From: Escherichia phage vB_EcoM_JS09
Sequence record: NC_024124.2
Reading direction: 5' to 3' (one strand)
DNA: 64,000 bases
The notes below the pieces were generated by a model, which did not search any database, had not been told where the DNA came from, and worked only from the letters and a program-made list of their open reading frames with translations. Both the position numbers and the translations under genes were made by a program. The stretch's first letter is position 1, and every line of letters begins with the position of its first letter. Shown here piece after piece: positions 31,924 through 48,353 of this stretch.

Positions 31924-31995
31924 GGCCCTGTAGCTCAATGGGAGAGCTGTCAGCTCATAACTGATAGGTAGCTGGATCGAAACCAGCCAGGGTCA
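31924..31995 (+). tRNA. tRNA with anticodon CAT (Met, or Ile2 if lysidine-modified); genomic CCA follows at 31996-31998
   Basis: Hand-folded cloverleaf: acceptor ggccctg/cagggtc, D stem gctc/gagc, anticodon stem gtcag/ctgat with loop ctCATaa, T stem gctgg/ccagc. Confidence 0.8.
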
Positions 31996-32001
31996 CCAAT
32001 C

Positions 32002-32075
<74 letters not shown>

Positions 32076-32096
32076 CCAACTTTAAGTGAGGAAAAT

Positions 32097-44238: not shown

Positions 44239-44601
44239 ATGAAAGCATATCAAATTCTTGAAGGTGCGCATAAAGGCACTATTTATTTTGAAGACGGTAC
44301 TCAGGCCCGGATTATTGTCTCTAAGACTTTTAAAGAAGACGCTATTGTAGACCCGGAAATTTTCTACGGTTTGAATGCCCGTGAAATTGAAATTGAACAT
44401 CAACCTAAAGTTAAAATTGAAGGTGGTCAACACCTGAACGTTAACGTTCTGCGTCGTGAAACTCTGGAAGATGCAGTTAAGCATCCGGAAAAATATCCTC
44501 AGCTGACCATCCGTGTATCCGGTTATGCAGTTCGCTTTAACTCTCTGACTCCAGAACAGCAGCGCGACGTTATCGCTCGTACCTTTACTGAGAGTCTATA
44601 A
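44239..44601 (+). CDS. autonomous glycyl radical cofactor (GrcA/YfiD-like)
   Basis: C-terminal [61 protein letters not shown] matches the PflB/GrcA glycyl-radical domain (RVSGYA); a T4 homologue is known. Confidence 0.85.
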
Positions 44602-45824: not shown

Positions 45825-46367
45825 ATGAGAAAAGCACTACTCGCTGGTCTATTTGCTCTTTCGTTATCAGCACATAGCTCCGAGCATACTTTTAGTAATG
45901 TCCAACTCGATAACTTGAATTATGCTTATCAGTTTGGGGAACAGTTTTCTAAGGACGGAAAATTTAAAACGCATGAAAATATGCATAAGAAAGGACTTGG
46001 ATACATAATGGCCGCAATACTATGGCAGGAATCATCTGCTGGTATTAATCTTAAAGATAAGAAAGGTCACCATGCGTATGGAATGTTCCAAAACTATCTA
46101 CCAACAATGAGGGCAAGAATTAACCAGCTTGGTTATAATATGACTGATGCCCAAATTAAGAAAATGCTATCTAAGCGGTCTAATTCAACCAGATGGGCTT
46201 ATATCGAATTTTCTTATTGGTTAAATATACATAATGGGGATATAAGAAAAGCTATATCCTCATACAATGCGGGATGGAAGACAAGTGCTGGAAGTAAATA
46301 TGCTTCTGAAGTCCTAGAAAAGGCTAATTACCTTAAATCAAATAAACTACTGGAAATAAAAGAATGA
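45825..46367 (+). CDS. secreted lytic-transglycosylase-like protein
   Basis: Signal peptide MRKALLAGLFALSLSAHS; SLT-like motifs ILWQESS...GMFQ...SSYNAG. Confidence 0.6.
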   Translation: MRKALLAGLFALSLSAHSSEHTFSNVQLDNLNYAYQFGEQFSKDGKFKTHENMHKKGLGYIMAAILWQESSAGINLKDKKGHHAYGMFQNYLPTMRARINQLGYNMTDAQIKKMLSKRSNSTRWAYIEFSYWLNIHNGDIRKAISSYNAGWKTSAGSKYASEVLEKANYLKSNKLLEIKE

Positions 46368-46711
46368 CCAAAGTGTTGGCTTTAATAGTTGGCTTGGTTT
46401 CATTTAACGCTCTTGCTAATACTACATATACTGATGTAACGGAGTATACAAACAGAACGGCGTCTGATTATTGTGGTAAAAGTCAAGAGTGTAAAGTAGA
46501 TTTTTCACAAAAATTGTTATATGCGTATAAAGACGGAGAAAAAGATGGGGCGTCTAGTAGGTTCAAGGCGTCTACCTTAATTAAAAGATACTATAAAAAA
46601 TGGCAAATATTAGAATGCTCGGTGGCGGAACCTAAAGATAAGGCAGCATGCAATTCTATGGTGGACCGTCTAGTTGACTCTTATAATAGAGGACTTGCAG
46701 CAAGTGATTAA
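46364..46711 (+). CDS. small secreted protein
   Basis: 115 aa; N-terminal signal peptide; 4 Cys. Confidence 0.5.
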   Translation: MTKVLALIVGLVSFNALANTTYTDVTEYTNRTASDYCGKSQECKVDFSQKLLYAYKDGEKDGASSRFKASTLIKRYYKKWQILECSVAEPKDKAACNSMVDRLVDSYNRGLAASD

Positions 46712-47171
46712 AAACTATATCAAGGGCGATATTGTCGCCCTGTTTTCTAAAGGTAATAATATTGCTCATGGGTGTAATTGTTTTCATACAATGGGCGCCG
46801 GTGTAGCAGGCCAATTAGCAAAGGCTTATCCAAAAATTTTAGAAGCCGATAAACTTCAAACCGAATTCGGAGACAAGTCTAAACTCGGGACTTATTCGGT
46901 TTATGAAAAATATTTTAAGACCCATAAAGCTTATTGCTTTAATCTTTATACGCAGTTTGAGCCGGGACCTAATTTTGAGTACTATGCTTTAATGAATTGT
47001 ATAATAGAATTAAATGAATTCGGAAAGAATAAGATAACAAAGCCTGTAATTTATATGCCAAGAATTGGTGCAGGTATCGGTGGCGGAAACTGGGATGTCA
47101 TCGAAGAGATTTTAGACACATATTCCACTAAACTAGAAATTGTGATTGTTGATTGGGAACCATTATTATGA
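46704..47171 (+). CDS. macrodomain protein (TARG1/DarG-like ADP-ribose hydrolase fold)
   Basis: Motifs YIKGDIVALF, HGCNCFHTMGAGVAGQLAKAYP, MPRIGAGIGGGNW align by eye with TARG1/DarG macrodomain signatures; start uncertain (track TTG 46674; GTG 46704 has SD gagga). Confidence 0.7.
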   Translation: MIKNYIKGDIVALFSKGNNIAHGCNCFHTMGAGVAGQLAKAYPKILEADKLQTEFGDKSKLGTYSVYEKYFKTHKAYCFNLYTQFEPGPNFEYYALMNCIIELNEFGKNKITKPVIYMPRIGAGIGGGNWDVIEEILDTYSTKLEIVIVDWEPLL

Positions 47172-47380
47172 ATATACATTATCCACATCCATATGACCCA
47201 AAGAATAAGGCAGTAATTATTCGTCAATGGGAACGCATTTGTCGTACCAAATGTCCAATTAATAGTCCACACGATGTAGATAAAGACTACATCGGAACAT
47301 TCGTTGAATATACCTTTATTGATAAGAAAGGCCGTAAACAACATGTAGAAGAATATTGCTTAAAGGTGACATGGTTATGA
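47168..47380 (+). CDS. hypothetical protein
   Basis: Track ORF 47153..; start at MNIHYPHPYDPK... Confidence 0.5.
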   Translation: MNIHYPHPYDPKNKAVIIRQWERICRTKCPINSPHDVDKDYIGTFVEYTFIDKKGRKQHVEEYCLKVTWL

Positions 47381-47583
47381 GTCAAACAAAAATTCTTACA
47401 GGTGCTAAATGCGAAAAATGCGAATGGCCTGTAGTTTTTGCTTTATGCAATGACGAAATGGCTTGTGATTTTGATTATTGGTGTTACTGTTCGAACAAAG
47501 GTTGTAGCAATCATAAAGGTGAAGGGTTTTACTCAGGATTTTACCCTTACCCGGATTTTGTTAAAGAAGGTGAACCTAAATGA
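47377..47583 (+). CDS. hypothetical Cys-rich protein
   Basis: CxxC...C...CxC pattern; start ambiguous (47371 or 47377). Confidence 0.45.
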   Translation: MSQTKILTGAKCEKCEWPVVFALCNDEMACDFDYWCYCSNKGCSNHKGEGFYSGFYPYPDFVKEGEPK

Positions 47584-47771: not shown

Positions 47772-48353
47772 ATGGCTAGTTTAATTTTTACATATGCCGC
47801 TATGAACGCTGGTAAGTCTGCTTCATTACTTACTGCCGCACATAACTATAAAGAACGTGGCATGGGTGTATTAGTTCTTAAACCGGCTATTGATACTCGC
47901 GATTCAAAAGGTGAAATAGTCTCTCGTATTGGTATTCGTCAGGACGCCAATATAATTACAAAAGACATGGATATCTTTGAATTCTATAAATGGGCTGCAG
48001 CACAAAAGGATATTCATTGTGTATTTGTTGACGAAGCTCAATTCTTAACTACTGAAAAGGTGTATCAACTTAGTCGTATTGTTGACGTATACAATGTGCC
48101 GGTAATGGCATATGGACTACGAACAGATTTTAAAGGTAATCTATTTGAAGGTTCTCAAGCATTAATGGCTATTGCCGATAAGCTTGTTGAACTTAAAGGT
48201 GTCTGTCATTGTGGTAAAAAGGCCACAATGGTAGCTAGAGTCACGGAAGACGGACTTCCAATTACAGATGGCAGTCAAATTGAAATTGGTGATACCGATA
48301 GATATGTGTCATTATGCCGGAAGCATTGGAATGATTTGACAGGGTTGTTATAA
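47772..48353 (+). CDS. tk: thymidine kinase
   Basis: 193 aa; P-loop AMNAGKSASLL; C-terminal zinc motif CHCGKKA...CRKHW; matches T4 Tk. Confidence 0.95.
   Translation: MASLIFTYAAMNAGKSASLLTAAHNYKERGMGVLVLKPAIDTRDSKGEIVSRIGIRQDANIITKDMDIFEFYKWAAAQKDIHCVFVDEAQFLTTEKVYQLSRIVDVYNVPVMAYGLRTDFKGNLFEGSQALMAIADKLVELKGVCHCGKKATMVARVTEDGLPITDGSQIEIGDTDRYVSLCRKHWNDLTGLL

What the first reader, a model, noticed from the sequence alone, without database searches (positions are those of the whole stretch)
46704..47171. TARG1/DarG-like macrodomain between vs and tk: candidate ADP-ribosylation counter-defence
The 46704-47171 ORF has three blocks that align by eye with TARG1/DarG-type macrodomains: YIKGDIVALF near the N-terminus, HGCNCFHTMGAGVAGQLAKAYP (compare DarG VNCVGVMGKGIA and TARG1 HCISEDCRMGAGIA as I recall them), and MPRIGAGIGGGNW (compare TARG1 MPRIGCGLDRLQW). 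Macrodomains of this class remove ADP-ribose from proteins or, for DarG, from thymidine in DNA. DarT-type toxins are known to block phage by ADP-ribosylating phage DNA, so a phage-borne DarG-like hydrolase is a plausible reversal enzyme. It sits in the variable vs-to-tk stretch, where I do not recall T4 carrying a macrodomain.
Basis: partly seen in the sequence, partly recalled or inferred. Interest (0 to 1): 0.72.

Follow-up and report, generated by a model that had tools for sequence, protein, structure and literature searches.

The report
Phage T4 tk.4/AdfM macrodomain ortholog

Summary
The ORF is real: 46704 (GTG) to 47171, + strand, 155 aa. It is a macrodomain. Pfam Macro scores 27.8 bits against a cut-off of 22, and the AlphaFold2 model has pLDDT 94.7. 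The best fold matches are TARG1, Poa1p, BT1257 and DarG.

The window is a Mosigvirus (RB69-like). T4 tk.4 sits at the same vs/tk position, is 84% identical, and has been annotated as an A1pp domain since 2006. RB69 Tk.4 is 97% identical.

A November 2025 preprint (HIDEN-SEQ) found tk.4 to be the single T4 gene required on DarTG2 hosts and named it adfM. Its enzymology was not shown.

What I add: this family lacks the TARG1/DarG catalytic lysine and the TARG1 aspartate. Gln84 and Asn25 are invariant in 118 homologs. They match Gln85/Asn27 of SCO6735, a lysine-less macrodomain shown to remove thymidine-linked ADP-ribose from DNA. It is therefore DarG-like in job but not a DarG. It has no DarT-binding domain, no adjacent darT and 29.9 bits against an NCBIfam cut-off of 250.

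Verdict: already known, low interest.

The parts
46704..47171 (+). tk.4 / adfM ortholog: 155-aa single-domain macrodomain protein (GTG start, TGA stop)
   Evidence: ORF; Pfam Macro above the gathering score; 84% identical to T4 Tk.4 and 97% to RB69 Tk.4; annotated 'macro domain protein' in phage mogra at the same coordinates
46689..46693 (+). Shine-Dalgarno GAGGA, 10 nt upstream of the GTG start
   Evidence: read from the sequence; conserved in T4, RB69 and mogra
46704..46711 (+). GTGATTAA overlap: the tk.4 start lies inside the last codons and stop of vs (46364-46711), suggesting translational coupling
   Evidence: T4 has a 4-nt overlap at the same junction. Coupling itself is inferred.
46767..46802 (+). 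HGCNCFHTMGAG (residues 22-33): ADP-ribose-binding loop 1, with invariant Asn25 and the GxG motif
   Evidence: G23, N25 and G33 are invariant and H22, C24, C26 and G31 are at least 90% conserved in 118 homologs; aligns to SCO6735 H24-V25-C26-N27
46941..46955 (+). NLYTQ (residues 80-84): end of the central beta-strand; Gln84 occupies the position of the TARG1 K84 / DarG K80 catalytic lysine
   Evidence: N80, Y82 and Q84 invariant in 118 homologs; hhalign places Q84 on PhiKZ gp104 Lys, TARG1 K84 and SCO6735 Q85; the model strand E75-84 ends here
47058..47093 (+). PRIGAGIGGGNW (residues 119-130): glycine-rich diphosphate-binding loop 2; Gly126 replaces TARG1 D125
   Evidence: P119, I121, G122 and G124 invariant; alignment to TARG1 PRIGCGLDRLQW
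47168..47171 (+). ATGA overlap of the tk.4 stop with the tk.3 start
46364..46711 (+). vs (valyl-tRNA synthetase modifier), upstream neighbour; fixes the synteny
   Evidence: 67% identical to T4 Vs, 98% to RB69 Vs
47772..48353 (+). tk (thymidine kinase), downstream anchor of the synteny block

Best explanation
The ORF is the Mosigvirus ortholog of T4 tk.4 (renamed adfM, anti-DarT factor macrodomain). It is made from the tightly packed regB-vs.1-vs-tk.4-tk.3-...-tk gene string. Its start overlaps the stop of vs. The protein is a free-standing macrodomain that binds the ADP-ribose which the host toxin DarT2 attaches to thymidine in single-stranded phage DNA. It most likely cuts the ribose-thymine bond, releasing ADP-ribose and restoring replicable DNA, so the phage escapes DarTG2 abortive infection.

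Catalysis probably does not follow the lysine chemistry of DarG/TARG1. The family has an invariant Asn25...Gln84 pair matching Asn27/Gln85 of Streptomyces SCO6735. In SCO6735 the Gln positions the distal ribose and a backbone-held water starts the reaction.

Shown here: the gene, its fold class, its conserved pocket residues, its orthology and its synteny. Shown in the literature for T4 only: it is required against DarTG2. Inferred: the same role in this phage, DNA de-ADP-ribosylation as the activity, and the Gln-type mechanism.
For: - Macro fold.
- Orthology and synteny with T4 tk.4 (84%) and RB69 tk.4 (97%).
- T4 genetics: tk.4 was the only significant hit on DarTG2, and the clean knockout was sensitised (10.1101/2025.11.20.689424).
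- All Tevenvirinae tested, including RB69 and its relatives, resist DarTG2 even without AdfA/AdfN (PMC11257639).
- DarTG2-sensitive T5 has no family member in its first 100 kb.
- N25 and Q84 are invariant in 118 homologs at 36-95% identity. They align with SCO6735 N27/Q85.
- SCO6735 removes thymidine-linked ADP-ribose; Q85A is dead and N27S nearly dead (PMC9411070).
- An unrelated-lineage phage macrodomain (PhiKZ gp104) was shown in vitro to reverse DarT2 modification (PMC13309987).
Against: - No enzymology exists for T4 Tk.4 or for this protein. The T4 evidence is one preprint, and no complementation is described in the passages I read.
- The loop after the catalytic position is neutral or acidic (net -2 here; family median -1). 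It carries 2 to 4 basic residues (net +1 to +4) in every proven thymidine-ADPr hydrolase compared: DarG, TARG1, SCO6735 and PhiKZ gp104.
- It also lacks the 5-residue longer lysine-bearing mobile loop that SCO6735 uses for DNA.
- The highest TM-score is to the small-molecule enzyme Poa1p (0.80).
- Some family members sit in NAD-salvage clusters.
- The Mosigvirus allele itself has not been tested.
Confidence: 0.75

Rival explanations
1. Its main job is processing small ADP-ribose derivatives (ADP-ribose-1''-phosphate, O-acetyl-ADP-ribose, or ADPr-based immune signals or toxins). This is the old 'A1pp phosphatase' annotation and the general prediction for phage macrodomains. Protection from DarTG2 would then be secondary or indirect.
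For: - Best TM-score is to yeast Poa1p, an ADP-ribose-1''-phosphate phosphatase (0.80). Sequence E-value is 1.9e-8.
- H22 and T29 align with Poa1p H23 and S30, residues mutated in PDB entries 6lfs and 6lft.
- The loop after Gln84 is non-basic.
- The homolog in Vibrio phage JSF10 lies between PRPP synthetase and Nampt, with a Nudix gene upstream. An Acinetobacter phage homolog abuts Nampt (H56).
Against: - The T4 phenotype is specific to DarTG2, a DNA-modifying toxin.
- T4-type tRNA repair (PNK plus ligase; my own knowledge) yields no ADP-ribose-1''-phosphate.
- The invariant Gln/Asn pair matches a DNA-ADPr hydrolase.
- Poa1p has Ser, not Gln, at that position (alignment).
Confidence: 0.1
2. 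It neutralises DarT2 mainly by binding it (stoichiometric inhibition, as for AdfA/AdfB or DarG's second mode), with hydrolysis dispensable.
For: Catalytically dead SCO6735 Q85A still inhibits DarT in vitro, more strongly than DarG K80A or TARG1 K84A (PMC9411070). AdfA and AdfB act by interaction.
Against: - The protein lacks DarG's C-terminal DarT-binding domain (PADLOC alignment covers only positions 4-145 of 329).
- Strict invariance of the pocket residues N25, Q84 and the glycine loops across 118 diverse phage homologs fits an enzyme. A binder tracking variable toxins would be expected to vary.
Confidence: 0.07
3. It reverses ADP-ribosylation of proteins or RNA, either marks written by the phage's own Alt/ModA/ModB enzymes or by other host ART defences.
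For: TARG1 and SCO6735 also act on protein-linked ADPr. T-even phages carry their own ARTs (context).
Against: The only condition in which T4 tk.4 scored was DarTG2, and it was dispensable on plain K-12. No protein or RNA substrate is indicated by any data here.
Confidence: 0.05

Closest known systems
Phage T4 Tk.4 = AdfM (anti-DarT factor macrodomain; HIDEN-SEQ preprint 2025)
   Same: 84% identical over all 155 aa. Same slot between vs and tk.3/tk, same length and same conserved motifs.
   Different: GTG instead of ATG start, and an 8-nt rather than 4-nt overlap with vs. 25 substitutions, none at invariant positions. The Mosigvirus allele is untested.
SCO6735 (S. coelicolor) / BT1257: lysine-less ALC1-like macrodomains
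   Same: Gln at the catalytic-lysine position, with Asn four residues before it. The H-x-C-N motif with the Gln-positioning Asn, and PRIG(A/C)G..GG.W. SCO6735 is a proven thymidine-ADPr DNA hydrolase.
   Different: Only about 21-26% identity. Tk.4 has MGAG (TARG1/DarG-like) where SCO6735 has WGKG. It lacks the 5-residue longer, Lys-bearing mobile loop. It is acidic rather than basic (pI 6.3 against 9.9).
DarG antitoxin macrodomain (Taq 5m31, Mtb 5m3i) and TARG1 (4j5r)
   Same: Same ALC1-like macro fold class (Foldseek probability 1.00, TM 0.66-0.76). Shared N-terminal (Y/F)xxG(D/N) strand, MG(A/K)G loop and glycine-rich loop 2. Same biological target pathway (DarT2 thymidine ADP-ribosylation) according to the T4 genetics.
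   Different: Catalytic Lys replaced by Gln; TARG1 Asp125 replaced by Gly. No DarT-binding C-terminal domain and no linked darT. 29.9 bits against the 250-bit NCBIfam DarG cut-off.
PhiKZ gp104, also named AdfM (Cell Rep 2026)
   Same: A stand-alone phage macrodomain that counters DarTG2. Same PHROG 335.
   Different: A different lineage. PhiKZ gp104 is closely DarG-like (PADLOC DarG 132.9 bits against 31.4) and keeps the FPTK lysine. BLASTP between the two aligns only 23 residues.
Yeast Poa1p (ADP-ribose-1''-phosphate phosphatase)
   Same: Best structural superposition (TM 0.80). Shared HxCNC...(S/T)(W/M)G.G motif.
   Different: Poa1p has Ser where Tk.4 has Gln84, and Phe152 where Tk.4 has Gly126. 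Its substrate is a small molecule from tRNA splicing.

Membership tests
Macrodomain superfamily (Pfam PF01661) | Profile score above the curated gathering threshold | tested here: met
   27.8 bits against 22, covering 2-117 of 118 profile positions
Macrodomain superfamily (Pfam PF01661) | Three-layer alpha/beta/alpha fold with a central mixed sheet | tested here: met
   AF2 pLDDT 94.7 with six long strands and five helices; Foldseek probability 1.00 to more than 50 solved macrodomains
Macrodomain superfamily (Pfam PF01661) | Conserved Asn after strand 2 plus two glycine-rich ADP-ribose-binding loops | tested here: met
   N25, G31/G33, G122/G124 and G127/G128 are invariant or at least 90% conserved in 118 homologs
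T4 Tk.4 / AdfM orthologous group | High full-length identity and conserved position between vs and tk | tested here: met
   84% to T4 and 97% to RB69; same neighbours
T4 Tk.4 / AdfM orthologous group | Required for plating on DarTG2-expressing hosts | not testable with these tools
   Shown for T4 only. Indirect support: RB69-group phages are DarTG2-resistant.
DarG antitoxin (NCBIfam NF048014 / PADLOC DarG) | Equivalog-level profile score | tested here: not met
   29.9 bits against a 250 cut-off; PADLOC DarG 31.4 bits, compared with 132.9 for PhiKZ gp104
DarG antitoxin (NCBIfam NF048014 / PADLOC DarG) | Catalytic lysine (Taq/Mtb K80) at the end of the central strand | tested here: not met
   Replaced by invariant Gln84
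DarG antitoxin (NCBIfam NF048014 / PADLOC DarG) | C-terminal DarT-binding domain and an adjacent darT gene | tested here: not met
   The protein is 155 aa and matches only positions 4-145 of the 329-position profile. Its neighbours are vs and tk.3.
TARG1/OARD1 | Lys84/Asp125 catalytic dyad | tested here: not met
   K84 aligns to Q84 and D125 to G126
SCO6735-type (lysine-less, Gln-dependent) ALC1-like macrodomains | Gln at the catalytic-lysine position, held by the loop-1 Asn | tested here: met
   hhalign places N25 on N27 and Q84 on Q85. The functional role of these residues comes from PMC9411070.
SCO6735-type (lysine-less, Gln-dependent) ALC1-like macrodomains | Extended basic mobile loop (K89, K94) used for DNA | tested here: not met
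   Loop is 5 residues shorter and carries net charge -2
SCO6735-type (lysine-less, Gln-dependent) ALC1-like macrodomains | Hydrolysis of thymidine-linked ADP-ribose on ssDNA | not testable with these tools
   Needs enzymology
Poa1p-type ADP-ribose-1''-phosphate phosphatase | Fold plus the His23/Ser30/Phe152 residues probed in the Poa1p structures | tested here: inconclusive
   TM 0.80. H22 and T29 align with H23 and S30, but F152 aligns to G126. I could not read the Poa1p paper.

The most novel reading that the evidence does not exclude
The Tk.4-type AdfM of T-even phages would be a separate, mostly phage-borne macrodomain lineage rather than a captured DarG ('orphan antitoxin'). It would reverse thymidine ADP-ribosylation without any catalytic lysine, using an invariant Asn25/Gln84 pair as in SCO6735, and without the basic DNA-binding loop of all characterised DNA-ADPr hydrolases. 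Its invariant, family-specific Asp49 and its occurrence in NAD-salvage clusters of other phages could mean a broader or different substrate range, such as DNA adducts plus soluble ADPr derivatives.
Probability: 0.45. Interest if true: 0.4.

Novelty: already known. Interest (0 to 1): 0.2.

Why it matters
For genome annotation, this gene should be called tk.4/adfM (anti-DarTG2 macrodomain) rather than 'phosphatase' or 'hypothetical protein', both of which are still common in the roughly 2,800 phage records that carry a homolog.

Scientifically, the remaining open point is small but concrete. The T-even AdfM lacks the DarG/TARG1 lysine and carries the SCO6735-type Gln, so the published description 'DarG homolog' hides a mechanistic difference. 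Q84A, Q84K and N25A mutants could test it directly. The name AdfM currently covers two different lineages.

Tried and rejected
- **ICP1 AdfB.** I checked whether it was a homolog. It is not: AdfB is a 77-aa DarT binder. The Vibrio phage hit JSF10 is a T5-family phage, not ICP1.
- **RNA element at the 5' end.** I tested whether the hairpin at the start of tk.4 (46723-46741) is a conserved RNA element. It is nucleotide-identical in T4, teqdroes and RB69 but lost in a Karamvirus, with no covariation, and the fold z-score is only -2.0. I did not pursue it.
- **Promoters and terminators.** The scan gave no more sites than shuffled sequence (19 against 18.3 promoter-like sites). I make no transcription-unit claim from it.
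- **Alignment of Gln84.** The plain phmmer alignment to BT1257 and the MAFFT alignment misplace the SCO6735/BT1257 Gln by 6 residues because of their longer loop. Profile-profile alignment resolves this, and I relied on that.
- **Poa1p mechanism.** The Poa1p structure paper is not in the library, so the Poa1p comparison rests on PDB entry names only.
- **Searches not run.** I did not run the large representative-protein search or metagenome scans, because the answer was already settled by orthology and literature.
- **Model coordinates.** These are not exposed, so I could not measure pocket geometry or the position of Asp49.

Full report
**1. The observation**

The ORF listing gives a 165-codon frame from an upstream TTG (46674) to the TGA at 47169-47171. 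The functional start is the GTG at 46704. It lies 10 nt after a GAGGA Shine-Dalgarno, aligns with the ATG of T4 tk.4, and is the start annotated in RB69 and phage mogra. The product is 155 aa.

The comparison strings it recalled for DarG and TARG1 are also correct.

The similarity is not chance:
- Pfam Macro scores 27.8 bits against a gathering score of 22.
- PHROG 335 gives E=2.8e-66.
- Direct sequence hits in the PDB are BT1257, Poa1p, SCO6735, DarG and TARG1.
- An AlphaFold2 model built on a 38-sequence alignment has pLDDT 94.7 and pTM 0.90.
- Its best Foldseek matches, all with probability 1.00, are TARG1, Poa1p (TM 0.80), BT1257, DarG and SCO6735. These are the ALC1-like/TARG1-like class and rank ahead of the MacroD and viral Mac1 types.

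**2. Where the window comes from and what the gene is called**

The region is 98.5-98.8% identical to many Escherichia Mosigvirus genomes of the RB69 group, such as phage mogra. In those records this ORF is already labelled 'macro domain protein' or 'phosphatase'.

The gene order is regB, vs.1, vs, this ORF, tk.3, a zinc-binding small ORF, tk.1, tk. This is the T4 order regB, vs.1, vs, tk.4, tk.3, tk.2, tk.1, tk.

T4 Tk.4 (NP_049723, 'phosphatase; contains A1pp phosphatase motif') is 155 aa and 84% identical without gaps. RB69 Tk.4 is 97% identical.

The A1pp (macro) domain of tk.4 orthologs, and their conservation among T4-like phages, were reported in 2006 (PMC1524935). tblastn finds a homolog in 2,791 phage records across many genera.

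**3. What is known about function**

- In 2024 it was noted that all Tevenvirinae tested, including RB69 and its close relatives, resist DarTG2 even when AdfA and AdfN are deleted. An unknown anti-DarTG2 factor was therefore inferred (PMC11257639).
- The HIDEN-SEQ preprint of November 2025 found exactly one significant T4 gene on a DarTG2 host, tk.4. It showed that a clean tk.4 deletion sensitises T4, named the gene adfM, and proposed, without enzymology, that it removes ADP-ribose from DNA.
- Independently, a 2026 Cell Reports paper gave the same name AdfM to PhiKZ gp104. It showed in vitro removal of DarT2-made thymidine ADP-ribose (PMC13309987).
- As a small consistency check, T5, which is DarTG2-sensitive, has no member of this family in its first 100 kb (best hit 8.2 bits in a non-coding frame).

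**4. What this protein is not: the catalytic residues**

I did, and neither residue is there.

In an alignment of 118 homologs (36-95% identity) the invariant residues are G23, N25, G33, A35, D49, G62, N80, Y82, Q84, P119, I121, G122 and G124.

Profile-profile alignments give the following correspondences:
- Gln84 falls on TARG1 Lys84.
- Gln84 falls on the FPTK lysine of PhiKZ gp104 and DarG.
- Gln84 falls on Gln85 of SCO6735, with Asn25 on Asn27. SCO6735 carries a 5-residue insertion right after the Gln.
- TARG1 Asp125 corresponds to Gly126.

SCO6735 is the documented precedent. It has neither TARG1 catalytic residue yet removes thymidine-linked ADP-ribose from DNA. Q85A abolishes activity and N27S nearly does. 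The proposed chemistry is Gln-mediated positioning of the distal ribose plus a backbone-held water. The authors state that this Gln distinguishes SCO6735/ALC1 homologs from TARG1/DarG homologs (PMC9411070).

The Tk.4 family is thus a hybrid. It has the TARG1/DarG-like MGAG loop 1 and the SCO6735-like Asn/Gln pair. It is about equidistant from both groups: hhalign probability is 98.2% to each, and HMM scores are 63.9 for BT1257, 62.7 for TARG1, 54.5 for SCO6735 and 44-50 for DarG.

**5. Membership**

It is a macrodomain and a Tk.4/AdfM ortholog. It is not a DarG:
- NCBIfam DarG scores 29.9 bits against a 250 cut-off.
- PADLOC DarG scores 31.4 bits, compared with 132.9 for PhiKZ gp104. The match covers only the macrodomain part, positions 4-145 of 329.
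- There is no DarT-binding domain, no darT neighbour and no lysine.

It is not a TARG1, because it has no Lys/Asp dyad.

It shares the defining Asn/Gln of the SCO6735 type but not that protein's long basic loop.

The two proteins called AdfM are different lineages. BLASTP aligns only 23 residues between them, although PHROG 335 lumps them together.

**6. Caveats and rivals**

The segment after the catalytic position carries 2 to 4 basic residues (net +1 to +4) in every proven thymidine-ADPr hydrolase I compared. It is neutral or acidic in the Tk.4 family: net -2 here, median -1 over 118 sequences. The protein's pI is 6.3. Overall charge is not decisive, since PhiKZ gp104 has pI 5.05 and is active, but the loop difference is unexplained.

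The highest TM-score is to Poa1p, a small-molecule phosphatase. H22 and T29 match two residues mutated in the Poa1p structures.

In a Vibrio T5-family phage the homolog sits between PRPP synthetase and Nampt, with a Nudix gene upstream. This fits the earlier prediction that phage macrodomains mostly handle soluble ADPr derivatives (PMC9503650).

Catalytically dead SCO6735 also inhibits DarT by binding, so a binding contribution cannot be excluded.

I rank enzymatic reversal of DarT2 DNA modification first (0.75). The rivals are small-molecule processing (0.10), pure binding (0.07) and protein/RNA de-ADP-ribosylation (0.05).

**7. Verdict**

However, the gene is a long-annotated, conserved T-even gene whose anti-DarTG2 role was published for T4 in 2025. 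Novelty: already known. The residual interest lies in the lysine-less, SCO6735-like active site, the non-basic loop and the missing enzymology.

Noticed in passing
window 47135-47380 (3' end of tk.4 through tk.3): tk.3 (DUF7202) is 100% identical in protein and about 98% in DNA to T4 tk.3, while the flanking genes are only 67-84% identical to T4. RB69, otherwise 97-100% identical to the window here, lacks tk.3 and the next ORF. This is a recombination mosaic whose left junction lies in the last ~35 nt of tk.4.
   Followed up: partly
window 47377-47583: The ORF in the tk.2 slot is a 68-aa Cys-rich protein (Pfam Phage_zn_bind, 101 bits), only 16% identical to T4 Tk.2 and absent from RB69. The small ORFs between tk.4 and tk are the truly variable part of this stretch.
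   Followed up: partly
window 46687-46749: An 8-bp GC-rich hairpin (46723-46741) lies just inside tk.4 and is followed by a U-tract. In the minimum-free-energy fold the U-tract pairs with the tk.4 Shine-Dalgarno, which could make tk.4 translation depend on ribosomes finishing vs. The sequence is nucleotide-identical in T4, teqdroes and RB69 and lost in a Karamvirus. There is no covariation and the z-score is only -2.0.
   Followed up: partly
window 46848-46850 (Asp49) and 46953-46982 (loop after Gln84): Asp49 is invariant in 118 family members but has no counterpart in TARG1, DarG or SCO6735. The loop after Gln84 is acidic or neutral, unlike the basic loop of all proven DNA-ADPr hydrolases. 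Neither feature is explained.
   Followed up: partly
L004 1-4587 (Vibrio phage JSF10, Demerecviridae): A 33%-identical family member, which keeps the N...Q motif, is embedded in a Nudix / PRPP synthetase / macrodomain / Nampt cluster. That is an NAD-salvage context quite unlike the T-even vs-tk context.
   Followed up: no
literature (10.1101/2025.11.20.689424 and PMC13309987): The name AdfM has been given independently to two different macrodomain lineages: T4 Tk.4 (Gln-type) and PhiKZ gp104 (DarG-like Lys-type). PHROG 335 lumps both together.
   Followed up: yes
L007 301-780 (phage teqdroes tk.4): Some Tequatrovirus genomes carry a tk.4 allele only 58% identical in protein to the window. Its first ~60 nt and upstream region are nonetheless identical to T4, which indicates mosaicism within tk.4 itself.
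   Followed up: no
window 31924-32078: There are only two tRNA genes (Met-CAT, Arg-TCT) in the window, found by both ARAGORN and Rfam. This is fewer than the eight-tRNA cluster I recall for T4.
   Followed up: no
window 44239-44601: vs.6 encodes a 120-aa GrcA/YfiD-like autonomous glycyl-radical cofactor (Pfam Gly_radical, 67 bits), 93% identical to T4 Vs.6.
   Followed up: no
L001 (phage mogra annotation): Several unrelated neighbours (vs.8, vs.7, vs.3-slot ORF, vs.1) are all labelled 'endoribonuclease' in the mogra record, apparently through propagated RegB annotation. This is an annotation error, not biology.
   Followed up: no
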